NCBI GenBank assembly: GCA_000320545.1
Contig: ADNK01002262.1
Coordinates: forward strand, 1 to 36,727
Reading direction: 5' to 3'
DNA: 36,727 nt
Source of the DNA: Bigelowiella natans CCMP2755
Lineage: Eukaryota; Protista; Cercozoa
This document shows, one piece after another, positions 20,093 to 36,727 of the stretch; positions within the stretch are counted from its first letter, which is position 1; every line of letters begins with the position of its first letter. The notes below the pieces were generated by a model, which worked only from the letters and a program-made list of their open reading frames with translations, was not told the DNA's origin and did not search any database. A program made the position numbers and the translations under genes.

Positions 20093-21978
20093 CTACCACG
20101 ATTTGCAGCATTGGTTGTGCTTCTTTGACTGAGCATAAAACTCTTTCGCTATCTCTGAGAGGTCCTGAGAATTCACAAGTTTGAGACAAAGAAAGGCGGG
20201 CATTAACACGGTTCGATGCATTACAGGCGACGCTCAGTTTTACAGCTTCTGAGTCTCATGTTGCTGTGCAACGCTCGATCACTGTGCTGCAGAGTGCAGG
20301 GTAGCACCCTCACATCGGCCTCTCAACTTGATACAAAAATAAGAGAAAAATATGGTTGCATTACTAGTAGCTTCTACCTCAGTCTTGTAAACAAGATCAT
20401 CCAGCTGCTCTCCTCGGTCCAGTAGAAGAGTAAGGTTGTCTTTCTGCAATCACACAGCATACGAACAGTATGTCAGAAAACAAAGCTTTGCGAAATCTAC
20501 ATCACCACCGTTGTCGTCATCGTCATCATCATTATCATCACTATTGTCATCATCATCGCTGTCATCATTGGAGTGTACATTTCATTTACCAGCTGCAGTT
20601 TTAGTTCCGAGACCTCTTCTTGGACTTTTCCAAGTTTATCCATTTTCTTTGGGTCCTGATGCACATTTTATGATTAAGAGGAGTCGAGAGGTATGCAACG
20701 AGAGAGAGAGAGAGGGAAACCTTGTATTCCTTAAGGTATTTTTCCATAAAAGGAGGTGAGACTGGTTTTTTTGATTCTTTCGTTACTGTTTTCCTGATTT
20801 GACAATAATGATCATGCTAATAATCAGCTTGCCGCACAACACTCCACACCTTATCTGCAAGACATACCCACCCCCCCGTTCGATAGATCATATATCTGCA
20901 TTCCAAGACCACATCTTCCCATCCAATGGCCCCTTTTCCCTTCTTGCATTGCTACCATTTGTCCCCGAGCTTGCTATTGAGATCTTTACACACGAGGTAG
21001 AGCAGCTGATAAGCCATATCCTGCGGATATTCCTGCGAAAAAAAAAATAACAATACTATCATCAGTGTGATCATGTAGGTAGCTCTTAGAGTCACTTTCT
21101 GAACGACCTCATCTGTCACGCAAACAGCTGCAAGGCCATCCGAACGAACTAAACTCTGCCAAACGGACGCAGAAAACACGATAATCAGTTTGCTGTATCT
21201 TGCGTTGCGAATTACTGTGGCAATGACGGCAATGATGATCTAGAACCAAGGTAGGCGTACATGAGCTATATAGTCTTCATATCCGCAGCCAACCGACACT
21301 CGTTCTCCCCTGTGCGGAAATGATGGTTACGATGGTGGTGCTTGTCAGGGGAATGAACAGTCTCTACGAGTTAAGTGTAAGGTTCACAACACTACTTTGG
21401 TGTTCTTTCGCACGTTGTCCGGGAACCGAAGTACACAAACTCACGGGCCTTGCCTCTGGAGAAGTACCTGTAGGAAAGGTGGTGGCTTTTTAAGAACAAC
21501 ATTGGGTTTTAAATAACCGCGTATTACGAGCGTTTCGCATTGGTTGTCGGAATGGAATCAAATCATTGCTATCTGCTACATTCAAAAACGTAGTTGTAAA
21601 AAATTGAAGAAACTCACCCAAATGGCGACATGTCATCCACCTGAAGCAACAATGGTTGGGATTTCGTTAACAATTCTGTTGGTATAGACAAGAAGAAGGC
21701 TGTTCACCTGCGCCAGCTTTAATGCCCTTTCGCCTTTTCCCTCATGGCGGAACACAATGATGCAAATTAACTGGAGAAATATTGGATCAGGGGAAGAATA
21801 AGCCAATACCATTTATCGATTATTGAGAATTAATGAATGTGTGCTGCACAGAGCGAGGCCATTTTCTCCCCATTGAAAGGTGCTACGGCGGTCGCCAAAG
21901 AAGGATCCACACGTATGCACAACATTGGGCTCAGATGCATTCTCCCGAGGCCTGACCTCAGGGCATTACCTTAACCAT
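20093..21978 (-). CDS. YKT6: Longin-domain R-SNARE Ykt6
   Basis: Eleven exons splice in phase: MVK|LICIIVFRHEGKGERALKLAQ|VDDMSPFG|YFSRGKAREFVYFGSRTTCERTPK|GERVSVGCGYEDYIAH|SLVRSDGLAAVCVTDE|EYPQDMAYQLLY...KW|...EYK|DPKKMDKLGKVQEEVSELKLQL|KDNLTLLLDRGEQLDDLVYKTE|DLSEIAKEFYAQSKKHNQCCKSW*. Longin fold, R-SNARE LDRGE core, no TM helix, terminal CC motif. Confidence 0.92.
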
Positions 21979-22501: not shown

Positions 22502-24222
22502 ATGCAAGAAGATGGAAAAAAGGAGGAGGTCTGGAATACTCCAGGAGGGGCGTTTATGATGGGTGCTGATCCTAAGAATGCTAAGTTCATGTTGGATTGG
22601 TGGGAGACAATCACCAGAGTCGTAGGTGAAACCAAAGCTTTTCAACAAGCCTTGATTCGCACTAGAACTCAATTTCTAAAAAGACGCCTGTAAATATACT
22701 TAGCCGATCCCAAAGATTGTGAGGATCAAGTAAAATCATTTAAAGAGGCTTGCTTGAAAGGTACCAAAACTTTTTTTTCTTATGCTTTCTTCAAATTACA
22801 ACTTAATGGCACACTATTTCACTCACAGGCTTCACCGGGGGCAAAGAAGAAGGGGGAGCATACGAATTGATAGCGAGCCTTCAGCTATATTATGGGGATT
22901 ACACTATGTTGATGTTTGCTGCGCGCGCAGGTAATTTGGAAAACACCAAGTTTCTCATTAAAATGGGCTCGAATGTTGACCAGGTCGACTCGCAAGGTTA
23001 CACTGCGCTCATGCACGCTGCAGTTACCGGACACGCTGACTGTGTCAGTGCAATTCTACAGAGCGGTGCACTGAGTTTCCTGAAGAACAAGAAAGGTTTG
23101 ACTGCAGCCGACCTCGCGGCAAACCACGAGAAACAGGGTGTATATAAAAAAAGGGACCAAAAGAAGTGCGTCGAAATCCTCAAATCAGCAGGAACGGACT
23201 CTGATGCAGGAGCAATTGCTCTCATGCGGAATGGGACAGTTGCTCAGATCGACGCTGCGTTTGAACAATTTCCCGAATTGTTGGGTAAGAAACTCTCCGT
23301 AATGTACACCGAAAAGTTGGTCAGTAAATCGGGCACGAACATGTTCCTAATTGCCGCAGCCGCCGGTAGGCTCGAAATCCTAAAGAAAATCTTCCCATGT
23401 TACATGAAAAGGAACAGGAAAATATTAATTAACAGGATGGATTACAAGTTTACGACCTATACTCCCCTAATGATGGGTGTAAAGAGCGGTAATGTAGAAA
23501 TGGTCAAATGGCTTCTCGAAAATCAGGCGTCCCCGAAAATCCTAGGGGACCGCAAGACAGGGGAGTACCCGATCGGAGCCGCAGCGTCGAAGAACGATAT
23601 CCAGCTTCTCAAGATACTGATTGATGCTAAAGCGGATTTAAACGCGAAAGAGAACAATGGTGATTTCCCGCTCGTAAAAGCAACGGAGATAGAGGCGCTC
23701 AGGGTTCTAATTGAGGCAAAGGCAGATCTTAATCAGAAGGATAGAGATGGAAAAAGTCTACTTGTGAAATTGGCGATCAACAAGGATGACAAAAAGCTGG
23801 AAGTAGTCAAGCTCCTGGTTGAGGGCAAGGCGGACCTTGACTCTCAAGACCGCTACAAAAATACAGCCACTCACTATGCGGCAGACACAGGCAACGAGCC
23901 ACTTGCAAGGCTGCTCCTGGAGAATGGTGCAAACGGCATGATCAAAGGAGAGAGGGGCAAGACGCCATTTGATCTTGCCACCAGAAAATTGAAACCCATG
24001 TTCGAGAAGATCATTAAGGCTGCAGAGGAGGCTAAGGCCAAGGCGGATGCTGAGGCTAAGGCCAAGGCGGATGCTGAGGCTAAGGCCAAGGCGGAGGCGG
24101 AGGCAAAAGCCAAGGCTGAGGCGGAGGCAAAAGCCAAGGCTGAAGCGGAGGCAAAAGCAAAAGCTGAAGCGGAGGCAAAAGCAAAAGCTGATGCAGAAAG
24201 CCAATGTTGTGTAGTGATTTGA
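22502..24222 (+). CDS. Ankyrin-repeat protein with AEAEAKAK helical tail and C-terminal CC/CaaX motif
   Basis: Long last exon (~22829-24222) with many ankyrin repeats ([33 protein letters not shown]), ending SQCCVVI*. Upstream introns 22626-22703 and 22761-22828 keep the frame. Start uncertain. Confidence 0.85.
24031..24198 (+). repeat. 24-bp coding tandem repeat ([16 protein letters not shown], about 7 units)
   Basis: gctaaggccaaggcggatgctgag-type units with stepwise synonymous drift along the array. Confidence 0.9.
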
Positions 24223-25616
24223 TGGACCCAATTTCCGCATCATTGAGGACCCAACAAAGCACAAAGGCAAGCTCTACAAGATCAACGGTTAACGTCGAAT
24301 GAGCACATCTTTAGCAGACATGCACACATGCACATGCAGGCATGGCAACATGCCTCATTAAATAGCTACATAGCACAAGCAGCAATCTTTGATGCAATTT
24401 CACATGTAGTCATCAACATTGGTAGTGTGACAGCTAGTCGTACGTGCAACATGTCTAGATGGATGTGTGGTATCTAGGATGCATGCTAGCATGTAGCTGC
24501 TCAACAACTACATGCAGCATGTGCATGTGTTTGTGCGTAGCATGGTCACGCACATACATGTCTAGATGTCCATTGCATGCATTACACATTGCATGTCAAA
24601 AGATGCTACACACGCATGCATGCGCTGCGATACACGCGCTGCTCTCGCACGACACCTGTGACAACGAAGGCTGTCACAGCAGTCCAGTCAATCACCACGC
24701 ACCACTTCGTTGAGCAGACGATAGATATGCATGCTAGCATGGTGCACACGATCTAGGTGTTATCCAACCAAACTGGTGAAGATGCAAAGACAGTGCAATT
24801 GAACATACAGCAAAGATGGAATTGTGTGGCACAAGCCAGGCTAGCAGGGTTCATGTGTGGCACAATGAATGAACTCATATCGAGGCTAGCTAGCTAGCTC
24901 TAGAGCTAGCTAGCTCACAGCAGTCATTGCACAATGCAAGCAACGCGTGGCTTGCTGTAGCTCTTGCTAGCTTGATTGCACATGGCGCGTGGACATTCTC
25001 GGCCACCGTGTGTGATGTGTAAGTAATAATAATAATAATTATTATAACCGCCAATGGCGGTATCTGCGATGTGGGCAGAGCCCACCTGCTCGCAAAGCGA
25101 TGCGACAGCTTCATTATGCTGTATCATATTACCTTATTATACTTATGTTTTCCCAGGGGGTGTTTTCCGGGGGCGGGGGTTATATATATAAAGTATGTAA
25201 GTATTTAATATATATATATATATATATTATAAAAAGTTTGGTTTTTAAAATGCCCCATAAGCCCTCATTAGTTATAAAATGAATGAGGTTAGAAAAAAAC
25301 ACTAATTAAAGTGGGGGTCTGAAAAAAAATGAAGAAGCATACGATGTCATTATATGCGATGTGCTATGCCGTGCGAAGCGATATGCCGTGCTATGTATGT
25401 ATGTATGTTGCGAGGCGATATGCGATGCTATGCGACTGCTATGGGACTGCTATGTATGTTGCGATGATGGTATGTATAAAGCAAAAGGATTTTAGCAAAG
25501 TTTGTTATCACATTGTCAACAACAGAAGGGTGCTTTTAAAGTGAAAGGTCATCTACACATTGATTGTTCCAACCACATTTTCTCCAGACAGAACCCAATG
25601 TGTGTGCGGAAGCAGT

Positions 25617-27983
25617 CTACATAGCGATGCGAAGATACTCCCCAGATTTTTCACCAACTCCACCAACAGCGAACAGTTTGCCATCCCCAACGGCCACACC
25701 CAAACCATACCTCTTAGTATTCATATCAGGAATTTTCGTCCACCCCGCATCCACATTCTCCAAATCCAGATACTCTCCAGATTTGAGAGGATTAATATCA
25801 TCAGCAGACCCACCAACAGCAAACAGTTTGCCATCCCCAACGGCCACACCCAAACCACTCCTCTCAGTATCCATCTCAGGGAGTTTCGTCCACCCCGCAT
25901 TCACATTCTTCAAGTCCAGATACTCCCCAGATTTGTGAGTATTACGACCATCATACCCACCAACAGCAAACAGTTTGCCATCCCCAACGGCCACACCCAA
26001 ATCACTCCTCCCAGTATTCATCTCAGGGATTTCCTTCCACCCCGCATCCATATTCTTCAAATCCAGATACTCCCCAGATTGGAGACGATTACGACCATCC
26101 CTCCCACCAACGGCAAACAGTTTGCCATCCCCAACGGCCACACCCAAACCATTCCTCGCAGTATCCATATCAGGGAGTTTCGTCCACCCCGCACCCACAT
26201 TCTTCAAGTCCAGATACTCCCCAGATTTGTGAGTATTACGACCATCATACCCACCAACAGCAAACAGTTTGCCATCCCCAACGGCCACATCCAAATAACT
26301 CCTCTCAGTATTCATCTCAGGGATTTTCTTCCACCCCGCATCCACATTCTTCAAATCCAGATACTCCCCAGATTTATCACCCCACCCACCAACAGCAAAC
26401 AGTTTGCCATCCCCAACGGCCACACCCAAACCATTCCTCGTAGTATTCATATCAGGGATTTTCGTCCACATCTTCATCTCCAGTAATTTTCGTTGTCGCT
26501 CTGCTTCTTTCTTCCTTCTTTCCGCTTCTTCTTTCTTCCTTCTTTCCGCTTCTTCTTTCTTCCTTCTTTCCGCTTCCTTCCTTTTTCTTTCTGCCTCCCT
26601 TTCTGCTTTCAGTCGCTTTCTTTCCGCTTCCTTCCTTTTTCTTTCTGCCTCCCTTTCTGCTTTCAGTCGCTTTCTTTCCGCTTCCTTCCTTTTTCTTTCT
26701 GCCTCCCTTTCTGCTTTCAGTCGCTGTCTTTCTGCTTCCCTTTCTGCTTCCAGTCGCTGTCTTTCTGCTTCCAGTCGCTTTCTTTCTGCTTCCAGTCGCT
26801 GTCTTTCTGCTTCCAGTCGCTGTCTTTCAGCTTCCATTCGTTTTGCTTCAAGCTCATCCCATATTGCTTTCAATTTCTTCACAGTATCACTTCGGGCTTT
26901 CCTCACATTCAAGTTCATCCTTTCCAATTCTGTTTTGATAGATATTGGCAAGTTCCGTTTCCGGAGCTTCCTTGTAATCCCAATGTCTCCTAACCATTCA
27001 GCATCCACTTCAGGCAACTCCTCGCCACCGATTTTCGCATCGGCAAACATTTTCGCTTCTTCTGGTTTCCCTATTTTCCGAATTATGTCAGACACCGCCC
27101 CCGCATCCAATTTCTTGTCAAACTTCTTCTTTACCAACGATAGGGTTTTTGTCAGATGCACACTCTTGTCCTCAAACACACAATGCCCATTGGATAGCAC
27201 CAACCCACAGTTGCTTTGTTTCGCATCAGATTCCAAGCACACAACATCTCCAATTGTAATCACTTCTGGTTTAATCACTTTTTTACTCCATCGTTTTATC
27301 TTTGAGAGTAGACACCTGCGGTGATTCAACTTCACCTCCAAATCTTCCAGTGTCTCCAAATCCATACTTAAAAGAATGTCGCCTCCTATTAGATTGTCCT
27401 CAAAACTTGCCTTGTATTCTGCAAATCCCCACTTGTGCAACAAATCACAAACTTGCTTCACACTCAGGGTCTTCTTCTGCATCAGCTGTTCGCTGGAAGG
27501 CAGGAGTTTCAAGTCTTTGGCAATCCACTTGGCAATAAGATACACATTGTATGCAACGACTGGTTTATCTGCTGGATTGAACTTGTTTTGGTGGGCGGGT
27601 AGGTTCCCCTTTTCTCGGAGCTGATGTAAACGAGAGTGCAAATCGCTCGTTATTCTTCCTTTCACCGTTTTGATGTTGTCAGACAGGTTCGCAAACCCCT
27701 TTCTTTCCTGAACTGTCAGCAGAAAGCCCTTAACGAAAAACTCAGCACATTTGCGACCGTTCAACATAACAATCTCGCAACTGCGATGGTAATCCTCTTG
27801 AATCTTATTCATAGACAGAGCCACATCGTGTGCATTCTTGTGCTTTACACCACCTTTCCCTTTGCACCCAAAGAAAATGGCATCCCTCAATTTGACCCAC
27901 TCGTCGTGTGTAAAACCAGTTGGTGGGTTCGCATCGTCGTGCATCTTGCTTTTGGAGCCATACTTCAACGGTTCAGCAGACAT
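25617..27983 (-). CDS. SAM-SAM-coiled-coil-Kelch (6-blade beta-propeller) protein, 788 aa
   Basis: SAM-like segments LSVKQVCDLLHKWGFAEYKASFEDNLIGGDILL...NHRRCLLSKI and LDAGAVSDIIRKIG...KIGGEEL...GITRKLRKR; E/R/K helix; six Kelch repeats W-x3-P-x-M-x-T-x-R-x2-L-x-VAVGDGKLFAVGG...SGEYLD. Intronless. Confidence 0.9.
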   Translation of the reverse strand: MSAEPLKYGSKSKMHDDANPPTGFTHDEWVKLRDAIFFGCKGKGGVKHKNAHDVALSMNKIQEDYHRSCEIVMLNGRKCAEFFVKGFLLTVQERKGFANLSDNIKTVKGRITSDLHSRLHQLREKGNLPAHQNKFNPADKPVVAYNVYLIAKWIAKDLKLLPSSEQLMQKKTLSVKQVCDLLHKWGFAEYKASFEDNLIGGDILLSMDLETLEDLEVKLNHRRCLLSKIKRWSKKVIKPEVITIGDVVCLESDAKQSNCGLVLSNGHCVFEDKSVHLTKTLSLVKKKFDKKLDAGAVSDIIRKIGKPEEAKMFADAKIGGEELPEVDAEWLGDIGITRKLRKRNLPISIKTELERMNLNVRKARSDTVKKLKAIWDELEAKRMEAERQRLEAERQRLEAERKRLEAERQRLEAEREAERQRLKAEREAERKRKEAERKRLKAEREAERKRKEAERKRLKAEREAERKRKEAERRKKEEAERRKKEEAERRKKEAERQRKLLEMKMWTKIPDMNTTRNGLGVAVGDGKLFAVGGWGDKSGEYLDLKNVDAGWKKIPEMNTERSYLDVAVGDGKLFAVGGYDGRNTHKSGEYLDLKNVGAGWTKLPDMDTARNGLGVAVGDGKLFAVGGRDGRNRLQSGEYLDLKNMDAGWKEIPEMNTGRSDLGVAVGDGKLFAVGGYDGRNTHKSGEYLDLKNVNAGWTKLPEMDTERSGLGVAVGDGKLFAVGGSADDINPLKSGEYLDLENVDAGWTKIPDMNTKRYGLGVAVGDGKLFAVGGVGEKSGEYLRIAM
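25630..26470 (-). repeat. Six ~135-150-bp Kelch-coding tandem repeats, near-identical in DNA
   Basis: acagtttgccatccccaacggccaca recurs six times at ~147-bp spacing. Confidence 0.95.
26488..26840 (-). repeat. 21/24/54-bp coding tandem repeats (EAERQRL, KAEREAERKRK, EAERRKKE)
   Basis: ctttctgcttccagtcgctgt-type units encoding a charged helix. Confidence 0.9.
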
Positions 27984-28095
27984 TTCCAGAGATTTTATCT
28001 TCCAGGTAGGTCGCGGATTCCTTTCTCACTTTCTCGCAAAGAGAGGGAGAGTCTCCAGAGTGTCCAGAGTCTGTTTTCCAAAAAATACATCCAAC

Positions 28096-29178
28096 TTAAC
28101 TCACGAAAAATCCCCTATCAACTTGCTTTCTTTTTCGCTTACTAGTCCGTATTTCAACAGGTTCATCGGTCCACTTCTCTCTCGGTTTCGGTGTTTTTTT
28201 CTCAATTGCTTTTTTCACTATTTCGTTTTCAGCAGGTTTCAGTTGATTCTTGCTGAAAGTTTTGTCTAAAACACCTTCCAAAATATATCTTACTGGTCGG
28301 TCAGGTAATAATAATATGTTTTCAATTTTGTGCGGTTTCAACGAATATCTTATGTCGCCCTCCCTGAAATTGCCTATTTGTTTCTCTCCTTTAAAATTCA
28401 CAGGATAATCCAATTTGTATCTCACCTTCCTACCGACCTCGTACAAATCACAATCGCCTCCCTTCTTACAAGGAACTTCTCCTGTCTGCTTCAACTTCTT
28501 CACCCTAGCATTCTCGTTTAACTTATTCAATATGTCAGGTAATAACTTTAACCACTGCTTACTTACTTTATCGTTCTCTAATTCTTTCACCAACTGAGTT
28601 TTGATAATAATACTGCCGATACTCTTATTTCGTGCTTCCACATTTGCCTGTTGACTATGCCTAGCAATACCTGCTCTTCTTAAATATATACCTTTCTCTC
28701 TCAAATACCCATCCAATCCTTTTTTAAACTCACTACCAGCATCTACTTGTAGGATTTTCGGCGGTTTCAACACCTTGTTCTCGTAATACACCTTGTCTAT
28801 CGCTTTTCTTACCGCTTCAGCAGTCCTTTTTCGTAAAGGTATAGCATCAGTTTGTTTAGTATGATTATCTACTGCTACTAATAAATATCTAAACCCTCTA
28901 TCATTAGGTAGATACAGCAAGTCCATCTGTCCCCGCTTACCCGGATACCCATAGGCATCGTTGTGGGTTGCTTTTACTTCAGGGTCTTGCTTTTTCTCCC
29001 TGGTCAGTTCATCTACTAAATCCTTACTCTTCTTGCCGATTAAACTTCCCAGTATGGTTGGTTTCTTCTTTCGTTTGACTATCTTTTTCACTATTTTCTT
29101 TTTAGGCATTTCAGTTTCTGTATCAGTATCATCATCATCACTACTGCTTTCGCTACTATAAGGTTCTTTCTCGTCCAT
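28096..29178 (-). CDS. Retroviral-type (rve, DDE) integrase of Polinton/mavirus type
   Basis: GQMDLL (D), YLLVAVDNHTK, LQVDAGSEF (D), QANVEARNKSI (E); C-terminal YEVGRKVRY...FREGDIRYS...VRYIL segment typical of Polinton-like integrases. Confidence 0.92.
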   Translation of the reverse strand: MDEKEPYSSESSSDDDDTDTETEMPKKKIVKKIVKRKKKPTILGSLIGKKSKDLVDELTREKKQDPEVKATHNDAYGYPGKRGQMDLLYLPNDRGFRYLLVAVDNHTKQTDAIPLRKRTAEAVRKAIDKVYYENKVLKPPKILQVDAGSEFKKGLDGYLREKGIYLRRAGIARHSQQANVEARNKSIGSIIIKTQLVKELENDKVSKQWLKLLPDILNKLNENARVKKLKQTGEVPCKKGGDCDLYEVGRKVRYKLDYPVNFKGEKQIGNFREGDIRYSLKPHKIENILLLPDRPVRYILEGVLDKTFSKNQLKPAENEIVKKAIEKKTPKPREKWTDEPVEIRTSKRKRKQVDRGFFVS

Positions 29179-29220
29179 ATATACATAATGTGAGATATAA
29201 AATATATGTAGTTTATTTTA

Positions 29221-29406
29221 ATGGATAAAGAAATAGAACGAATGCTCATACACAAGGGATTAACCAAAGGAATAATAAGTATGATAGATGAATACCTATA
29301 TCAAAGTTATTTAGTGTGTTTAACTCACAATTTCCGCAGACTAAACAATAGTCCTAAACTTAAGTTCATCAACAAATTAAATTTTAAAAAAAAATATGTA
29401 AATTAA
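29221..29406 (+). CDS. Small hypothetical viral protein, 61 aa
   Basis: ATG-started ORF divergent from the integrase, AT-rich leader with TGTA 10 nt upstream. Confidence 0.5.
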   Translation: MDKEIERMLIHKGLTKGIISMIDEYLYQSYLVCLTHNFRRLNNSPKLKFINKLNFKKKYVN

Positions 29407-29418
29407 TAATATAGGAAT

Positions 29419-29595
29419 ATGATAAAGTTAATATATGAATTAATCGTAAATTTACTGCCTGACAATTTTACAACATACAGGAATGATGATGCTGTTGTGG
29501 TTTATGACAGGTCGGTGTGGAAGATGGAAAGCAGGGACGATGCTATCTTATTGATTAAGAAGAATATATGTAATATGTCAATAATAAATTGTTAA
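29419..29595 (+). CDS. Small hypothetical viral protein, 58 aa (below ORF-track cutoff)
   Basis: MIKLIYELIVNLLPDNFTTYRNDDAVVVYDRSVWKMESRDDAILLIKKNICNMSIINC*; fills the gap between ORFs and is followed by a hairpin. Confidence 0.5.
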   Translation: MIKLIYELIVNLLPDNFTTYRNDDAVVVYDRSVWKMESRDDAILLIKKNICNMSIINC

Positions 29596-29610
29596 TATAT
29601 ATTTTCCTCC

Positions 29611-29663
29611 AATATTGAAATTCAACACTTTAGACACCCTCGAAGGTGTTGAAACACAATATT
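29611..29663. terminator. Intergenic hairpin, putative 3'-end/polyadenylation signal
   Basis: aatattg (29611-17) pairs with caatatt (29657-63); ttcaacac (29621-28) pairs with gtgttgaa (29646-53). Confidence 0.5.
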
Positions 29664-29696
29664 AAATTAAATATAAAAATATATAGTATAATATAT

Positions 29697-30656
29697 ATGA
29701 ATAGTATACTCAAAGATGTTGATAGAACTTCTCTCTTTCCAATCAGGCACAAAGACATATGGAATGCCTACAAGATACAACAAGCAGGATACTGGACTGC
29801 CGAAGAAATAGATTTCAGTAATGATGCCGATGACTTCTCCAAATTAAGTCAGGACGAACAAAAGTACTTAAAATATACCCTCATCTTCTTTGCGAATAGT
29901 GATATTGAAGTGAATGAAATGATAAATAGGAATCTATACGAGGAGTTTAAGGCATTAGAAATTCGTATGTGCTACGACTTTCAAAGGCAAATGGAAAATA
30001 TACACACAGAAACATACAATCTACAGATAGATACTTTGATAAAAGATAAAAAAGAAAAGGAGGATTTAATAAATGCTGTAAAGAATAATCCTATCATAGA
30101 ACAAAAGATAAACTTCTGTAGGAAACAGGTCTTGTTATACAACTCCATACAGCATAAATTGATATGTCAGGTCATCTTTGAAGGCATATTCTTCGCTTCC
30201 TCGTTTGCTTGTATTTACTACTTCAAGCAGAAAGGTATATTGAAAGGTCTAACTTTATCTAATGAATTTATCAGCAGAGATGAGAACCTACATTATAGTT
30301 TCAGTATTATGCTATACAATAAGTTAGAGAAGAGACTATCACAAGCAGAAGTAGCGGTGTTGTTTGATAAGGCACTATGTATTGAACGAGACTTTATCAC
30401 ACAAGCATTGCCTGTTAGATTGTTAGGAATGAATGCGGATATGATGTTAGACTACATCAAATTCACAATAGACAATATATTACTCAAATTAGGTTATGAT
30501 ACAATCCACAATGTGAGTAATCCTTTGACCTGGATGGAAAGACTGGATTTACAAGGCAAGACCAATTTTTTTGAGAGTAGAGAAAGCAACTACCAATCTG
30601 CTAATGTATTAAACGAGAACAAAGAAGACATCTTCCAAGTAGACCTCAATTTTTAA
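29697..30656 (+). CDS. Ribonucleotide reductase small subunit (class Ia R2, eukaryote/NCLDV type)
   Basis: YWTAEEIDF, FFANSD, MENIHTETY (E-x2-H plus radical Tyr), FEGIFF, SRDENLH, KTNFFE, C-terminal FQVDLNF. First ATG is at 29697. Confidence 0.95.
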   Translation: MNSILKDVDRTSLFPIRHKDIWNAYKIQQAGYWTAEEIDFSNDADDFSKLSQDEQKYLKYTLIFFANSDIEVNEMINRNLYEEFKALEIRMCYDFQRQMENIHTETYNLQIDTLIKDKKEKEDLINAVKNNPIIEQKINFCRKQVLLYNSIQHKLICQVIFEGIFFASSFACIYYFKQKGILKGLTLSNEFISRDENLHYSFSIMLYNKLEKRLSQAEVAVLFDKALCIERDFITQALPVRLLGMNADMMLDYIKFTIDNILLKLGYDTIHNVSNPLTWMERLDLQGKTNFFESRESNYQSANVLNENKEDIFQVDLNF

Positions 30657-30671
30657 TCTAAATTATTATAG

Positions 30672-30881
30672 ATGCTACTGGAAATAGTTAGACTATTACA
30701 ATTACAACTACGATTAACAAGATTAAGAAAAGAGATAAACAAATTGATAAAGCAAAACAAGAAACTGATAAAAGAGAACAGCAAATTGTTGATACAATTA
30801 AATATTATGAAACAACCCTTTGATGACAATGGTGATTTAACTGATAGTGCATTTAGGATGTTGATGAACGACGAAAAATAA
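30672..30881 (+). CDS. Small coiled-coil viral protein, 69 aa
   Basis: Leu/Ile heptads (LRKEINKLIKQNKKLIKENSKLL); TCTA 11 nt before the ATG. Confidence 0.65.
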   Translation: MLLEIVRLLQLQLRLTRLRKEINKLIKQNKKLIKENSKLLIQLNIMKQPFDDNGDLTDSAFRMLMNDEK

Positions 30882-30896
30882 TCTAATCTTTATTAA

Positions 30897-31007
30897 ATGA
30901 TTGTAGTGTTATTAATATTAGGACTCATCTTTTCCATAGGTTATACAATAGGTAAGATAGTAGCAAGGAACACGGATTTAGACCCCACCAACGATATTAG
31001 AGTATGA
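30897..31007 (+). CDS. Putative 36-aa single-pass membrane microprotein
   Basis: MIVVLLILGLIFSIGYTIGKIVARNTDLDPTNDIRV*; TCTA 11 nt before the ATG. Confidence 0.55.
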   Translation: MIVVLLILGLIFSIGYTIGKIVARNTDLDPTNDIRV

Positions 31008-31308
31008 TGAGATTAAATTTATCAGCATAGTCCTCTAAACTATCCTTCAAATCAGGTTTATTCCACAAGACCCAACGAGATAATGAACCAGCAGTCAGGA
31101 ATTTACTCCAATCTTCATTCTTCATATGCCTTGTCAGGTATCTATCTTTTCTGTTTTCATCTTTATGTATCGTAAAGTCGCTATACCGACTATCTCCAAA
31201 GTCTGTGTGTTTTACTTTTATTATCCTTCCACCCTTATCAACATAAAAGAGCATCCTATGCTTCTTATTTTTAAGAGGTGATTTCATTAGTTTAATATAT
31301 ATTTTCAT
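30997..31308 (-). CDS. Tlr6F-like / DUF5754 family protein
   Basis: KSPLKNKKH...DFGDSRYSDFTIHKDENRKDRYLTRH...EDW...AGSLSRWVLW matches the family pattern found in Polinton-like viruses, virophages and NCLDVs. Confidence 0.85.
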   Translation of the reverse strand: MKIYIKLMKSPLKNKKHRMLFYVDKGGRIIKVKHTDFGDSRYSDFTIHKDENRKDRYLTRHMKNEDWSKFLTAGSLSRWVLWNKPDLKDSLEDYADKFNLIIL

Positions 31309-31323
31309 ATTATAATAGTTAAC

Positions 31324-31420
31324 ATAAAATAAATTGTTAAAAAAACAATTTATTTTATATTAAGAGGAAAAATAAATTTCTATTTATTTTTTCTTGTTCT
31401 TAACAAGAATATTATAATAT
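31324..31420. terminator. Cluster of AT-rich hairpins downstream of the MCP gene
   Basis: Perfect 15-bp inverted repeat 31324-38/31344-58; 10-bp 31368-77/31382-91; 8-bp 31391-98/31402-09; palindrome atattataatat 31409-20. Confidence 0.65.
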
Positions 31421-31425
31421 AAAAT

Positions 31426-33249
31426 TTATAATAACGAAGAGAGTTTCTTTTTCATTCCACCACCACTTACGGATGCTTTACCTCCTATCTTTTTCTTAAG
31501 CACATTTGCTCCCATTTTAAGAACGGCATCTTGAACTTTAGGATTAGAGGCAATATTTTTCACAGTTTTTCCAACTTTAGATGCTAAACTGCTGAAGAAC
31601 CCTGAACCGACTAATTTGTTTTCAACATCACTTCCTCCAAATTGTGCTGATAATACATCCTGTTCTGTAATAAGGTTCTTAACAATCATAGAAGAACCTG
31701 CTACAGTCTTGAAAAATCCTGATTGAGGGGTCATAACTACAAGTTGAAGGTTTGGAATAGCAACATCACCCATTGCTGTAGGTTTCATACAGGTTGCTTG
31801 GACTTGTAATGTGTAGTTTCCAATCACACCTGGTGCTTGAGAAGGGTTTAATTCAATATCTTTACCCATTTTAGCAATGACGAACCCACCACTGGTGTGG
31901 ATTTTTCTGCCTTTACTTCTACTGCTTCCAATGTAGGTGTGGAAATCAATTTCTAATCCATTATCATAACTCATCTTGTATAATTTATCCACAGGCATTG
32001 TGTTTAAAAGACCGCTTCTGTTATCAAAGGTAATGTTTAAATTTGTGATGGGAAAATAGAATTCGTTTTCGGTCGCATCATATGTTGTTTTCTTAACAGC
32101 AATAATTAAACTATCAGGGATACTTGGTAATGTTATAGTAGATGATAATATGGTTTTACTATTGTTTATCCCTTGAGGAAAACCATTACTATCAATAGTT
32201 CTATATGTAGGGAACTCCATATATGGGACAATATTTTCAGGACTGACTTTGAGGTCTAAAGCAGGAGTTAAATACACAACATCTATATAACTTTGTAAAA
32301 ATGGTCCTGGTTTATTCGCTAATGTAACGAATTCTGCTCTACATGTTACATCACCTGCTTGAGTGCCGATTCTGTTTCCATCGTAGCAGACTGCTCTACT
32401 TGGGTCTTTAAAATTGATTTGGAGGGTAGCATTGTTAACACCGTATAAACCTACACTATGATAATTCTCAGGAACATAGCATAACGGACTAATCATAAGT
32501 TTCTCTTTGGATGTAAATTTTAGGTAAAATTTATATTCTGCTTGGACAAGATTTCCAGGTGCTCTTACGACTGGTTCGCCATCCGCATATGGATAAGCAA
32601 CACCACCTATGACCACATTTCCATTAAAGTTGTCCGGTAAAACATCGCCATTACCATCTACAAAATTAACATCAAAATGTGCTCCATTCTTGTGGTAGAA
32701 TTTATCGCCGTCAAAGAACCCAGTAATACTATTATTGAATGCTCCTTTACCTTCGCTATATTTTCCATAAGGTGACAAATAGGAAGGGCAAATCGCACTG
32801 CTACTGTCATATTTTGGGTCAGTAGTCATTAGAAGCAACTGCTCGTTTATGGATTGGTCTAAATTAGTTGTGGATACTGTATCGTTAATTTGTAGACTCA
32901 TTGTGGAAACCATTCTATGTAAAGGGAAGTTGTTTAATGATAAGATTTCACTTAAGGTTGCGATTTTAGCATTAGCAGCAGGGTTTCCACCAGCACCAAG
33001 ATCAGCACCAGTATTAAAATCACCTCTGTTTACAGTAACTAAAAGGGTGACCTCGGAGGTCCAGTTTATCTTTCGGTCAACGAAGACATTTAAAGAAGGT
33101 ATGGTAATGTTATAGTTTTGATTACTCGCACTTGCGGATAAGGATTTAATCTGTTTGTTATTCACTGACATAGAACTCTTAGAGATTTTGTATTCAGGTG
33201 GTAACTGAACTGTTCTTGCATCATAAACTGCTTTCTTACTTAAATTCAT
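31426..33249 (-). CDS. Virophage major capsid protein (double jelly-roll), 607 aa
   Basis: Virophage-typical length; N-terminal D-x-R...NYNITIPSLNVFVDRKINW, FPLH, LYGVNN, TITLPSIPDSLII, PITNLNITFDNRSGLL, APGVIGNYTLQV, Gly-rich basic tail; adjacent to penton. Confidence 0.9.
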   Translation of the reverse strand: MNLSKKAVYDARTVQLPPEYKISKSSMSVNNKQIKSLSASASNQNYNITIPSLNVFVDRKINWTSEVTLLVTVNRGDFNTGADLGAGGNPAANAKIATLSEILSLNNFPLHRMVSTMSLQINDTVSTTNLDQSINEQLLLMTTDPKYDSSSAICPSYLSPYGKYSEGKGAFNNSITGFFDGDKFYHKNGAHFDVNFVDGNGDVLPDNFNGNVVIGGVAYPYADGEPVVRAPGNLVQAEYKFYLKFTSKEKLMISPLCYVPENYHSVGLYGVNNATLQINFKDPSRAVCYDGNRIGTQAGDVTCRAEFVTLANKPGPFLQSYIDVVYLTPALDLKVSPENIVPYMEFPTYRTIDSNGFPQGINNSKTILSSTITLPSIPDSLIIAVKKTTYDATENEFYFPITNLNITFDNRSGLLNTMPVDKLYKMSYDNGLEIDFHTYIGSSRSKGRKIHTSGGFVIAKMGKDIELNPSQAPGVIGNYTLQVQATCMKPTAMGDVAIPNLQLVVMTPQSGFFKTVAGSSMIVKNLITEQDVLSAQFGGSDVENKLVGSGFFSSLASKVGKTVKNIASNPKVQDAVLKMGANVLKKKIGGKASVSGGGMKKKLSSLL

Positions 33250-33266
33250 ATATAATTACACCGAGA
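33250..33266 (-). promoter_or_regulatory. Viral promoter-like motif TCT[A/C]-N13-ATG (MCP copy; recurs at other viral genes)
   Basis: Same 13-nt spacing at integrase (29192-95), penton (34583-86), lipase (35522-25) and protease (36297-300); 11 nt at 30657-60 and 30882-85. Confidence 0.7.
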
Positions 33267-33279
33267 AAAAAAATTTAAA

Positions 33280-34569
33280 CTATTTTTGCTTTCGTTGAAA
33301 CATTAGTTTTAGATGGATGCTACTTTTGTTAGGCATTCGTATAGGGACTAAATCACCGGTTAAGCGATGCTTCCAAAATGCCGAAATCTGTATACTTTTC
33401 AAGGGGATGTTCGCAGAGGTAAAGTTAATATATCTGTATTCACCGCTTGGAACATAGGTAATCGTTCCGCTATAATCATCGGCACTACTAATACCTACTG
33501 TCATATCACTAATAACCTTTTGGGAGGTATCTTGCCTACTATCGCTTACTTGCTGTCGGTCCACAAATTCTAAAGGTGTTCCTGTGATTTCACTCTCAAT
33601 GGGAATGATATTGGTAGTAAATACAATCGCACTGACTGGACACCATAAACTGCTCACACTCTCATAGTCTTGAGATAAAATACTATATGTTTTATTTCCT
33701 TTGGTGAGTGAATGAAGGTCTAAATCATCCTCAATTGGTAGAATATCGTAGGCACATCCCGGTATGGACATATTTTCTACTATATCAGTAATTGTGCCTC
33801 TGTTATATTCTATAGTGTTTTTAAGGTCGCCTCCTATATAGTTGTGATGAAAATTGCTAAAGAGTAAAAAGAGATTGCTGTTAAAAAACAATCTACCTTT
33901 CACATCAAAAATGGTATTGTTGAACCTGTTGTCTTTCTTTCCGTGTATATCCTTGTCTAAATAAAGTTTAAATAACTGCGAACTCTCTTCATAATAAAGT
34001 ATAGGTGCTTTGAGATTGTCTAAATGTGTTATTTCATCAGGAAGAAGACCTGGGACTTCTGCTTTACATTTAGCAATCAGGTTGTCGTGACATCGTTTAA
34101 GAGTTTTGTTTATCAAGTGTGCTATATGACTATAGGTAGAGACATAGTAATAATTTGTAGATAAGTCCATCTGCTTCCCTACAGTTGTGGGTGGACTGGT
34201 GTTTTTGTTCTGGGTTTCAAAATAGACAGTTTCGGTCTGAGACTTTTTGTGATGTATCCCATTTTGAATAAAGTGGTAGAACAGAGTTATTTTGTAAATG
34301 GTCTTATTCGCATCGGTCTGGTCTCGTTCAATTTCAGGTATAAATATAGGGATTTCTCTACCTACACCATTTAATTGAAACCGAATGATGGAGAAATACC
34401 AACTGCTGACATCGTCTAATAATGCCTTTGATAGGGTGTCTGTATAACTCACTACAGGATTATCCTTATTGCTGTCTATGGTCTCGTTATTCACAATATC
34501 TAAATTGTAATAAAGGTGGTCTTGATGCTCTTTGTTAAAATTATTCATAGCAAATATATAACTATTCAT
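33280..34569 (-). CDS. Virophage minor capsid protein (penton), 429 aa
   Basis: HLYYNLDIVN, WYFSIIRFQL..IPIFIP, WCPVSAIVFTT, ITYVPSGEYRYI, PLKSIQISAFWK, IHLKLMFQRK; immediately upstream of MCP. Confidence 0.88.
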   Translation of the reverse strand: MNSYIFAMNNFNKEHQDHLYYNLDIVNNETIDSNKDNPVVSYTDTLSKALLDDVSSWYFSIIRFQLNGVGREIPIFIPEIERDQTDANKTIYKITLFYHFIQNGIHHKKSQTETVYFETQNKNTSPPTTVGKQMDLSTNYYYVSTYSHIAHLINKTLKRCHDNLIAKCKAEVPGLLPDEITHLDNLKAPILYYEESSQLFKLYLDKDIHGKKDNRFNNTIFDVKGRLFFNSNLFLLFSNFHHNYIGGDLKNTIEYNRGTITDIVENMSIPGCAYDILPIEDDLDLHSLTKGNKTYSILSQDYESVSSLWCPVSAIVFTTNIIPIESEITGTPLEFVDRQQVSDSRQDTSQKVISDMTVGISSADDYSGTITYVPSGEYRYINFTSANIPLKSIQISAFWKHRLTGDLVPIRMPNKSSIHLKLMFQRKQK

Positions 34570-34594
34570 TATTAATAAAATTTAGATAATTTTT

Positions 34595-35473
34595 TTAATA
34601 TTTTAAATTGTTTTTTTTGATGTATTGTGATGCTTCAATAAACTTTAGTCCCTTATCTTTCATCAATTTTTTAATCAAAGCACCCCTTCGTTTCCTTCTG
34701 TCGTTTGGATTTGTGGATTTGACCCTTGACTTAACAATCTTAAATCCTTTCTCACATTGGATGTTGTTGCTTCGGTTGGTTTTCCTTTTCTTTTCTGTAC
34801 TGATGATGGTGGGTGTAATACGACGAGACGGTTTGGATTTTTTAGTTTTCCTTCCTTTTGTAACATCTACCTCATTGATTTCATCCAGCGATTTGCCTGT
34901 GTATTTAAGTGCGATGTCGTTCAGTCTTTCTCGTTCTGCTTCCTGTGCTTTTGTTCCACCTACTCGTTTACCTTTCCCTGATTTCTTTTCTTCGTCTATT
35001 ATCACATTTGTTTTCTTATTCCCTTTGCTACTTTTCAACTTTTTATTTACCCTGTCCATTATCCTTTTCTTAAATTCTTTGTTGCTCTCCACCCACTGAA
35101 ATAGTTCTTTTGAAGGTTTGTCTACCACTACCCAATCGTCTTTAGCACCTCCATAGTGGTATCCTTTTCCTTTGACTTTTTGAATGAGTGCCTTTATATT
35201 AATCTTTTTCTTCTTCTTCTTTTTGTGTTTTACTCCAGATGCTTGGACGACTTCATTCGCTACATCCAGGACAGGTGCTATTTCTGGGAGTAATTTTTTA
35301 CCCACTTTCATAGGTATTGAAAACCCCTGCTTAAAACCTTTGTGAAAGTCTTTCCAAAATCCAGCACCCATTATATTCTTTAGTTGTTTAACTTCGTCAT
35401 CCATTTCCATAATATTCTTAGCATAGTGTAATCCTAACTGTAATGCTCTTGATTTATCAGCATTCTGTGACAT
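34595..35473 (-). CDS. Lys-rich putative core/DNA-condensing virion protein
   Basis: Highly basic; several Gly motifs (IMGAG, HYGG, RVGG), amphipathic FWKDFHKGFKQGF, C-terminal RGALIKKLMKDKGLKFIEASQYIK. Start at 35473 or 35494. Function inferred. Confidence 0.6.
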   Translation of the reverse strand: MSQNADKSRALQLGLHYAKNIMEMDDEVKQLKNIMGAGFWKDFHKGFKQGFSIPMKVGKKLLPEIAPVLDVANEVVQASGVKHKKKKKKKINIKALIQKVKGKGYHYGGAKDDWVVVDKPSKELFQWVESNKEFKKRIMDRVNKKLKSSKGNKKTNVIIDEEKKSGKGKRVGGTKAQEAERERLNDIALKYTGKSLDEINEVDVTKGRKTKKSKPSRRITPTIISTEKKRKTNRSNNIQCEKGFKIVKSRVKSTNPNDRRKRRGALIKKLMKDKGLKFIEASQYIKKNNLKY

Positions 35474-35538
35474 ATGTATATATATATAAATCATTAGATA
35501 TTTTTTTTCTCAATAAAATTTTCTATATAATAATTAAT

Positions 35539-36306
35539 ATGGTGAAAAAATTTAAAGATGTCATTGATGAGAAAGAGTATTACATAGGTTCTGTGAATTC
35601 CTATAAACAAAAACCTACAGACATAAACCAAAACCTAAAATTAAAATATGATAGTGATACTTTTGATGTATATATAGACGAGAAACTCAAAGTCATATTA
35701 ATAACAATTAGAGGGACTAAACCTACAAGTATGGGTGATTTATATGCCGATTACAAGATTGCTTGGAATAATCTACAAGCAAGTAATAGATTTAAAACTG
35801 ACATTAAGAGAATGGACGAAATAATAAAGCAATATAAACCCAGTCAATATCTGTATTTCATAACAGGTCATTCTTTAGGTGGAGCGATAGTGAATGAATT
35901 TATAAGGAGGTATCCTCTTATTAAATATGCTACAACCTTCAATGGAGCATCTCAACCCCAAGATATAAAGATACAGAACAACGATAAGGTGAAGAGAATA
36001 TACATAAACAAAGACTTTTTATATAGACTTAACAACGGATACAGATATGATAGGTTGAAGGTGTTGAAATACAATCCTGAACAAGTTAGAAGTTTCTTTG
36101 ATTTTGTGAAAAGAAGGTTTGACTATACCCCAACTATGCTAAAGGCACACAGTTTAGACCAACCTGCTTTCAGGAAACTATATAATTACGAAGATGGAAA
36201 CCCAACGATATTACGGAACGACTATGTTGAAGGCGGATGTAAAAAGAAGAAGAAATGTAGGTGTAAATACAAAAAGATTATCTCTAAAATTATAAATCTC
36301 AAATAA
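35539..36306 (+). CDS. Class-3 lipase / alpha-beta hydrolase
   Basis: ITIRGT oxyanion segment, TGHSLGG nucleophile elbow, TFNGA, distal AHSL. ATG at 35539 has TCTA 13 nt upstream. Confidence 0.9.
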   Translation: MVKKFKDVIDEKEYYIGSVNSYKQKPTDINQNLKLKYDSDTFDVYIDEKLKVILITIRGTKPTSMGDLYADYKIAWNNLQASNRFKTDIKRMDEIIKQYKPSQYLYFITGHSLGGAIVNEFIRRYPLIKYATTFNGASQPQDIKIQNNDKVKRIYINKDFLYRLNNGYRYDRLKVLKYNPEQVRSFFDFVKRRFDYTPTMLKAHSLDQPAFRKLYNYEDGNPTILRNDYVEGGCKKKKKCRCKYKKIISKIINLK

Positions 36307-36313
36307 TATATAT

Positions 36314-36727
36314 ATGAATTTATGTAAGAATGTAGATTTCCATAAAAGTTTAGATAATCTTGTCAGCAGTCTTAAATCCTACCCTCTTTCCAATTATGAT
36401 TTAACAAATGCTCACCCCAACATCAGAATAACTACATCTGCCGACTTACCGAAATTGCGATTTGCCGACCAACTATTTAATGGTAATATCGGTGTCTTGT
36501 TGTGGTTGAATGAGGAGAATTCAGACACTGGTTGGGTTTAATACGGAAACAGCACACAATAGAAATTTTTGATAGTTATGGATTTCCTTTTAAGAATATC
36601 AACAAGCACCTAAACTCCAAAATGAATATCTCGCCTATGTGTATTAAACCTCATTAAGAAAAGCGGATACAACCTATATTAATAAGAAAATATACCAAAA
36701 CAGGACCGATAAAAGCAATGCTACCTG
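36314..36727 (+). pseudogene. Adenain/Ulp1-like virophage maturation cysteine protease, frameshifted (decay or sequencing error), cut by window end
   Basis: YPLSNYDL...VLLWLNEENS in one frame; HWLGLIRKQHTIEIFDSYG in another (from 36526); INKKIYQNRTDKSNAT-tg[Cys if the next base is t/c] in a third (36678-36727). Confidence 0.8.

What the first reader, a model, noticed from the sequence alone, without database searches (positions are those of the whole stretch)
25150..36727. Integrated virophage with rve integrase, its own RNR subunit and a eukaryote-like cargo gene
Seen: a compact intronless block (integrase, R2, Tlr6F, MCP, penton, basic protein, lipase, protease) joined directly to intron-rich host genes, with all long ORFs except the protease intact. 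Established: MCP, penton, cysteine protease and ATPase define virophages; mavirus-like elements integrate using rve integrase and can reactivate upon giant-virus infection; endogenous virophage-like elements are known in Cafeteria and Bigelowiella. Inference: a recent, possibly reactivatable provirophage that could serve as anti-giant-virus defence. By eye the MCP and penton look closer to Sputnik/lake-virophage types than to mavirus, so the lineage may be undescribed.
Basis: partly seen in the sequence, partly recalled or inferred. Interest (0 to 1): 0.92.

Follow-up and report, generated by a model that had tools for sequence, protein, structure and literature searches.

The report
Known Bigelowiella provirophage, spliced by host

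Summary
The gene block is real, but it is not a new lineage. Capsid (94-97%), integrase (98% outside one gap), R2 (99%) and the N-terminal part of the SAM-kelch cargo (99%) match Bigelowiella natans gene models on several scaffolds. This is the endogenous virophage family published in 2015, later placed in clade Vp.cl15. R2 also occurs in 6 of 80 related virophage loci and in Cafeteria EMALE07. The protease frameshifts all lie in the last 204 bases; DNA contigs carry the missing base at three of them, so they are probably contig-end errors. The left junction and target-site duplication were not tested, and no ATPase is in the window. New: in one marine metatranscriptome, 11 of 13 listed joints have GT/GC..AG ends, all on the + strand (chance 0.7% each). 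They cross R2, lipase and protease in sense and the capsid genes in antisense, and are absent from two DNA runs. Known 'transcription' of these provirophages may therefore be mostly non-productive host read-through. The scan's notes held nothing on this sequence.

The parts
22807..24222 (+). Host-side ankyrin-repeat exon ending in an EAKAKA repeat and a CaaX-like end (CCVVI); flank, not part of the element
   Evidence: only distant ankyrin relatives found in a length-limited search (4 hits, 25-44% identity)
25150..25616 (.). Putative left terminal region (G-run, AT-rich stretch, short minisatellite); exact end not established
   Evidence: two exact patterns found nothing in viral and metagenome contigs; L081 diverges at about 25,571
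25617..27983 (-). Cargo gene, 788 aa: N-terminal region, two SAM stretches, coiled coil, about 5.6 kelch repeats; host-like composition (GC 0.46, TpA rho 0.40)
   Evidence: Pfam; residues 1-360 are 99% identical to B. natans models on scaffolds 54 and 119
28096..29178 (-). rve (retroviral-type) integrase, 360 aa, DD35E intact
   Evidence: PF00665; near-identical B. natans models on scaffolds 85, 2, 146
29221..29595 (+). Two small ORFs (61 and 58 aa), no family
29697..30656 (+). Ribonucleotide reductase small subunit (R2), 319 aa; ExxH motifs and Tyr107 present
   Evidence: PF00268; 99% to five named B. natans sequences carrying 8 accessions
30672..30881 (+). 69-aa coiled-coil ORF
   Evidence: only sub-threshold coiled-coil hits
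30997..31308 (-).
   Evidence: PF19058 53 bits; in 5 of 80 related loci
31426..33249 (-). Virophage major capsid protein, 607 aa
33280..34569 (-). Virophage penton (minor capsid protein), 429 aa
   Evidence: PF21507; in 75 of 80 related loci
34595..35494 (-). Lysine-rich basic protein (likely start 35473); C-terminal 37 aa shared with other virophages
   Evidence: 5 of 80 loci; same order basic-penton-MCP in fused B. natans models P0134, P0138
35539..36306 (+). Alpha/beta hydrolase (lipase-like, GHSLG motif)
   Evidence: below cut-offs; in 16 of 80 related loci
36314..36727 (+). Virophage cysteine protease, cut by the window end; one-base gaps relative to reads at 36523, 36636, 36641, 36670, 36678
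29863..36703 (+). Span of 13 listed RNA joints in run X15 (skips of 54-537 bases), 9 GT..AG and 2 GC..AG, none on the minus strand

Best explanation
This is a young copy of the multi-copy endogenous virophage family of Bigelowiella natans, likely inserted by its own rve integrase and likely latent until a giant virus supplies transcription and replication. Shown: virophage capsid, penton, protease, integrase, R2 and a host-like SAM-kelch cargo in one compact AT-rich block, repeated in the same order on other B. natans scaffolds. Inferred: the element entered the nucleus as a virion genome and was pasted into the chromosome by the DD35E integrase. On infection by a mimivirid such as ChlorV, the helper's late transcription apparatus would drive the capsid module and produce virophage particles that lower giant-virus yield in neighbouring cells, as mavirus does in Cafeteria. 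R2 would top up dNTP supply in the virus factory, probably pairing with a host or helper R1. In the latent state, host polymerase II likely reads across the block at a low level, and the spliceosome cuts that RNA at cryptic GT/GC..AG sites. The protease of this copy is probably intact in vivo (about 0.8).
For: MCP 96% to Bigna1 aug1.85_g18969, next hit outside the family 42%; five B. natans-type MCP rows form one clade, SH-aLRT 100, quick tree. By accession adjacency (inference): integrase and R2 neighbour each other on scaffolds 85, 2 and 146, R2 and MCP models on 85, 161 and 187, SAM-kelch and MCP models on 54. The window's own R2 and SAM-kelch proteins are held letter for letter by EukProt. 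Reviews report 38 such elements, six with TIRs, lower GC than flanks, with an integrase. DNA contigs of runs X1 and X4 carry the extra base at 36523 in all depth there and at 36641; X15 shows it at 36636, 36641, 36670, 36678; reads continue past the window end. 11 of 13 X15 joints are canonical, P about 2e-22, none in X1 or X4. ChlorV infects B. natans and has a TCTA late motif; TCTA starts 11-20 bases upstream in 3 of 11 ORFs, shuffle p 0.02.
Against: The junction with host DNA was not tested with reads, and the flank was not tied to B. natans by homology. No ATPase or replication gene is in the window. TCTA is missing upstream of MCP, integrase and R2, and the position window was chosen from recall. 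Contigs collapse copies and drop rare variants, so this one copy could still be broken; at 36636 only 193 of 879 (X1) and 34 of 134 (X4) depth units carry the extra base. No reactivation has been shown for this family in the papers read; Koslova et al. state that no particles were seen without a giant virus. Splicing rests on contigs of one RNA run; the culture RNA run gave 49 reads and no listed joint.
Confidence: 0.88

Rival explanations
1. This copy is a decaying relic: the protease really is broken here, the right half may be lost, and the copy can at most be mobilised in trans.
For: Protease in three frames. Other copies are damaged: DNA contigs show an 83-base and a 366-base deletion and foreign sequence joined inside the basic gene at 35347 and 35189. 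Reviews describe many truncated copies. One copy (scaffold 146) is hypermutated in culture.
Against: All five one-base gaps lie in the last 204 bases, all in one direction, while about 8 kb of ORFs before them are open. TpA rho of the viral block is 0.90, and 11 of 27 shown transitions are in TpA context against 32% expected (p 0.23).
Confidence: 0.2
2. The host-virus join in the window is a misassembly of a repeated element onto unrelated host sequence.
For: No junction-spanning read was seen. The 0.70-0.73 word share of 14 DNA runs is close to the share of the element alone in the stretch sent and so does not prove the join. L081 parts from the window at about 25,571.
Against: The same gene order stands on several B. 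natans scaffolds; integration of this family is published; spliced RNA implies nuclear copies.
Confidence: 0.07
3. The SAM-kelch gene is a host gene lying beside the element, whose true end is just after the integrase near 28,050.
For: Host-like GC3 (0.47) and TpA depletion; no match in 80 related viral loci.
Against: Intronless over 2.4 kb, 112 bases from the integrase on the same strand; 99% paralogs on two other scaffolds, one beside an MCP-bearing model; only 2 hits in 3682 candidates, both from this family.
Confidence: 0.12
4. The RNA joints are artefacts (template switching, assembly) or come from a processed DNA copy, not from splicing of provirophage RNA.
For: One run, each joint in one contig at depth 15-28, amplified library, likeness set to 90; 14 further joints were not shown; 2 of 13 lack canonical ends in the window's letters.
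Against: 11 of 13 canonical against 0.7% chance, all on one strand, sides of 25-65 bases (11 of 13 at 44 or more), six joints at one depth (20.1) forming a chain, absent from both DNA runs.
Confidence: 0.1

Closest known systems
Bigelowiella natans virophage-like elements / provirophages (Blanc et al. 2015, PNAS 112:E5318; not readable here, seen through passages of PMC6723459, PMC11172284, PMC5127031, PMC6905037)
   Same: Near-identical proteins and gene order; lower GC than flanks; integrase; core morphogenesis genes. This copy is very probably one of the 38, not verified.
   Different: None in kind. Spliced, partly antisense read-through was not found in the papers that could be searched; the original paper and its supplements could not be checked.
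Mavirus and EMALEs of Cafeteria burkhardae (PMC8547959, PMC10945749; passages)
   Same: rve integrase, nuclear integration, multi-copy; EMALE07 also carries an RNR small subunit gene.
   Different: Capsid is far from mavirus (33 against 203 bits to Sputnik V20). EMALEs are reported silent without CroV. Reactivation is shown there, not here.
Metagenomic virophage clade Vp.cl15 (YSLV5, Trout Bog virophages; PMC6905037, passages) and related IMG/VR contigs
   Same: MCP 30-37% identical; penton, protease, lipase, DUF5754 and R2 occur among them.
   Different: rve integrase and SAM-kelch in 0 of 80 loci within the flanks fetched (up to 10 kb each side).
Punuivirus endogenous giant virus of Chlamydomonas (bioRxiv 10.64898/2026.10.09.758095; passages)
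   Same: Integrated viral DNA transcribed and spliced by the host during latency.
   Different: There the introns lie in 61 coding latency genes. Here the joints cut through intronless viral ORFs and run antisense to capsid genes.
TpA hypermutation of integrated viruses in B. natans (bioRxiv 10.64898/2026.01.13.699255; parts 1-3 of 5 read)
   Same: Its hypermutable virophage on scaffold 146 belongs to this family (integrase and R2 models).
   Different: No TpA erosion is visible in this copy.

Membership tests
Maveriviricetes (virophages sensu stricto; criteria of PMC9952930 section 2.1) | Virophage-like hexon (MCP) | tested here: met
   PF21915 and PF22031 above cut-off. The ICTV group's own HMMs were not available.
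Maveriviricetes | Virophage-like cysteine protease | tested here: met
   Pieces match proteases of 6 related loci, profile E 1e-12 and 5e-11 in two frames; frameshifted in the window, reads indicate an open form in the family.
Maveriviricetes | Virophage-like packaging ATPase | not testable with these tools
   No Walker A motif and no tblastn hit in 25150-36727; the window ends inside the element and no genome is held.
Maveriviricetes | Penton (expected) | tested here: met
   PF21507, 62.7 bits.
Maveriviricetes | Genome of 15-45 kb (expected) | not testable with these tools
   Only about 11.6 kb are in the window.
B. natans virophage-like elements | Near-identity to annotated B. natans copies, same gene order | tested here: met
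B. natans virophage-like elements | Lower GC than host flank | tested here: met
   0.34 against 0.45; the kelch cargo is an exception (0.46).
B. natans virophage-like elements | Terminal inverted repeats and target-site duplication (complete copies) | not testable with these tools
   Right end is outside the window; pattern scans found no other copy of the putative end.
Functional provirophage (mavirus type) | Reactivation by a giant virus, particle production, lower helper yield | not testable with these tools
   Needs infection experiments.
Functional provirophage (mavirus type) | Promoter motif shared with the helper's late genes | tested here: inconclusive
   TCTA in 3 of 11 upstream regions at -20..-11 (p 0.02) and 5 of 11 within 40 bases (p 0.046); absent for MCP.
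Polinton / polinton-like virus | Polinton/PLV-type capsid rather than virophage-type | tested here: not met
   Only virophage MCP families hit; 120 of 120 listed homologs carry PF21915 and PF22031. No PLV outgroup was in the tree.

The most novel reading that the evidence does not exclude
The Bigelowiella provirophages are not simply 'expressed' in latency. Host RNA polymerase II reads across the whole block on one strand, and the spliceosome chops the AT-rich viral RNA into 55-120-base exons. This yields non-coding RNA that skips the R2 start codon, breaks lipase and protease, and is antisense to capsid and penton. It would act as a built-in lock that keeps the provirophage mute until a giant virus transcribes it in the cytoplasm, out of reach of the spliceosome. 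It would also be a candidate guide for the TpA hypermutation of these elements. It occurs in wild ocean cells.
Probability: 0.4. Interest if true: 0.65.

Novelty: already known. Interest (0 to 1): 0.33.

Why it matters
The element itself adds little: it is a copy of the first host-integrated virophage family described. Two things still matter. First, these provirophages are cited as transcribed, unlike the silent mavirus-type elements; if that RNA is spliced and partly antisense, the contrast disappears and splicing becomes a simple explanation for why nuclear copies of a cytoplasmic virus make no particles on their own. Second, with ChlorV isolates that infect B. natans now in culture (PMC13196603), the ten-year-old defence hypothesis for this family can be tested directly, and this copy looks intact enough to be a candidate.

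Tried and rejected
No whole genome is held, so copies could not be compared as DNA. Blanc et al. 2015 was not available by DOI or PMC id. Single-protein scans of viral contigs with MCP and integrase found no relative; the phage collection gave no match. Two exact patterns from the putative left end found nothing. The junction region was not covered by any read lay. The word share of the DNA runs was considered as support for the junction and rejected, as it fits the element alone. TpA hypermutation of this copy was tested on the 40 substitutions shown (86 more not shown) and not found. The homolog search for the ankyrin flank did not find a B. natans match but was length-limited. The ESM Atlas did not answer for the basic protein. 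The MCP tree is the quick search, 49 rows (39 database proteins or parts, 9 locus ORFs, the window), without Sputnik, mavirus or PLV rows; its 'one change' figure for R2 carriers compares them only with the B. natans group and was not used. No complex or structure prediction was run, as sequence profiles were decisive. Literature searches for spliced or antisense provirophage transcripts and for kelch with virophage and natans found no report; 'splic' was absent from PMC10945749 and bioRxiv 068312 and appears only in methods in PMC9356565 and the hypermutation preprint.
Full report
What is in the window. From 25,617 to the end there is a compact block of intronless ORFs. Pfam names them: SAM and kelch repeats (788 aa, minus strand), rve integrase (minus), RNR small subunit (plus), DUF5754 (minus), Sputnik-type major capsid protein (minus), Sputnik-type penton (minus), and a weak lipase-like hydrolase (plus). 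A lysine-rich ORF and three small ORFs have no family. The integrase has DD35E spacing and R2 has its ExxH motifs and Tyr107 (their roles are established knowledge). The block from the integrase on has GC 0.34 against 0.45 in the first 22.9 kb, and microsatellite runs fall from 39 to 1 across position 25,150. No ATPase motif or replication gene is present, and 929 ORFs from 80 related virophage loci hit nothing left of 29 kb.

What it is. The best MCP homolog is a Bigelowiella natans gene model at 96%; the second is an unnamed contig protein at 94%; the next are at 42%. R2 falls in a cluster of 10 with five named B. natans sequences. The integrase cluster has B. natans models on scaffolds 85, 2 and 146. 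The N-terminal 360 residues of the SAM-kelch protein are 99% identical to models on scaffolds 54 and 119. Accession numbers place integrase next to R2, R2 two numbers from MCP, and SAM-kelch three numbers from an MCP-bearing model; reading this as gene order is an inference. Two fused models (P0134, P0138) show the order basic-penton-MCP directly. So the block, cargo included, is a repeated element of B. natans. Passages of four papers report that Blanc et al. 2015 found 38 virophage-like elements in that genome, six with terminal inverted repeats, lower in GC than their flanks, mostly transcribed, with an integrase; Paez-Espino et al. place it in clade Vp.cl15 with YSLV5. I could not read the 2015 paper itself. 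I recall that it lists RNR and kelch or ankyrin ORFs, but that comes from no call.

Lineage. In a quick tree the five B. natans-type rows form one clade on a long stem, nearest to five unnamed contig proteins. R2 is not peculiar to this element: it is in 6 of 80 related IMG/VR loci and in EMALE07 of Cafeteria. rve and the kelch cargo were in 0 of 80, within the flanks fetched.

The protease. It matches related virophage proteases in pieces spread over three frames. Laying reads on 29,700-36,727 shows one more base than the window at 36523 (all depth in X1 and X4), 36636 (part of the depth), 36641, and, in X15 only, 36670 and 36678; loose ends continue beyond the window's last letters. All five places lie within 204 bases of the end and all are missing bases, which is the pattern of a poor contig end. 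Contigs merge copies, so a real break in this one copy is not excluded.

The junction. This was not tested with reads. Two patterns from the putative end found no other copy. One contig, L081, carries part of the cargo gene and parts from the window 46 bases after its stop and again inside the ORF, both at places that could be splice sites; whether L081 is DNA or RNA is not known. The end of the element lies between 24,222 and about 25,570.

The unexpected result. Run X15, a marine metatranscriptome, gave 45 contigs on the block. Of 29 joints, 15 were listed: 13 in X15 and 2 in DNA runs. Of the 13, 9 have GT..AG and 2 GC..AG ends in the window's letters, all on the plus strand; random joints of the same lengths give 0.7%. 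The two DNA joints are listed with non-canonical ends. Two more X15 joints with one letter between, and three loose ends, also fit GT..AG by inspection; these are not counted. The joints fall in R2 (4), DUF5754 and MCP (3, antisense), penton and basic ORF (2, antisense), lipase and protease (4). Six at one depth form a chain with exons of 117, 55, 64, 63, 64 and 80 bases, whose first exon begins after the R2 start codon. None is in X1 or X4. Spliceosomal ends imply nuclear transcription (established knowledge), so wild cells likely hold integrated copies of this family and the host processes their RNA. In the culture run X21 only 49 of 15,999,702 records were laid, about 0.4 per kb per million over all copies, with no host control and no listed joint. 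In it, first mates lie on the same strand in the R2, MCP and lipase bins although MCP is coded on the other strand, so one set is antisense under either library convention; the basic gene shows mostly the opposite direction, which does not fit a single plus-strand transcript. This is evidence from one run plus a few reads. Three literature searches found no report of it, but the 2015 paper could not be searched. B. natans has been noted for noisy splicing, with later data disagreeing on its level, so the joints may be a by-product rather than a selected lock.

How it likely works. Shown: gene content, repetition, open frames, canonical RNA joints in one run. Inferred: integration by the rve integrase; latency; low host read-through made non-coding by cryptic splicing; induction by a mimivirid. 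ChlorV isolates infect B. natans and share the TCTA late motif with CroV; TCTA lies at -20..-11 in 3 of 11 ORFs (p 0.02) but not before MCP, which is weak support. A preprint reports TpA hypermutation of the scaffold-146 virophage and suggests RNA guides; that copy belongs to this family, but this copy shows no such scar.

Verdict. The element is already known. The spliced, partly antisense RNA is a lead worth a proper test. Papers seen: PMC13196603, PMC6723459, PMC5127031, PMC6905037, PMC11172284, PMC6142364, PMC10945749, PMC8547959, PMC9356565, bioRxiv 068312 and bioRxiv 2026.10.09.758095 as passages; PMC9952930 as passages and section 2.1; bioRxiv 2026.01.13.699255 parts 1-3 of 5 and passages; Blanc 2015 not seen. 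No supplements were read; those of Blanc 2015 and of the hypermutation preprint may list this copy.

Noticed in passing
window 28826-28948 (minus strand, integrase): Three B. natans integrase gene models (P0143, P0293, P0294) all have a 41-residue gap; in P0143 it matches a 123-base stretch with GT..AG ends that holds the first catalytic Asp. It may be a prediction artefact or a real splice that would inactivate the integrase.
   Followed up: partly
window 29863-36703: 9 of 13 X15 skip lengths are multiples of three (p about 0.009), including four antisense ones; unexplained, perhaps codon phase of AG/GT words.
   Followed up: partly
window 24300-25000: Host-side gap strongly enriched in CpA/TpG (rho 1.96) with many GCATGC/CTAG words; TpA rho 0.78, so it does not meet the published hypermutation cut-off.
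   Followed up: partly
window 35347 and 35189: DNA contigs with 255 or more and 135 unrelated letters joined inside the basic gene: likely ends of truncated copies or insertions elsewhere in the genome.
   Followed up: no
window 35143: All three contig runs carry a 9-base in-frame insertion in the basic gene relative to the window; other copies carry 83-base (31316-31400) and 366-base (36236-36603) deletions.
   Followed up: no
window 26480-26850 and 25660-26469: The cargo gene varies between copies in coiled-coil repeat length and kelch sequence while its N-terminal 360 residues are 99% fixed, as expected for a variable binding module.
   Followed up: partly
L081:1-122 and 1617-1729: Unrelated sequence joined to the cargo gene at both ends, at places compatible with splice acceptor and donor.
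   Followed up: partly
window 31426-33249 against P0001, P0134, P0138: Differences between MCP copies appear by eye to cluster in a few N/G/A-rich stretches, possibly surface loops.
   Followed up: no
window 20282-20449 (-) and 8380-8640 (+): Host exon-like pieces resembling synaptobrevin/VAMP (below cut-off) and ankyrin.
   Followed up: no
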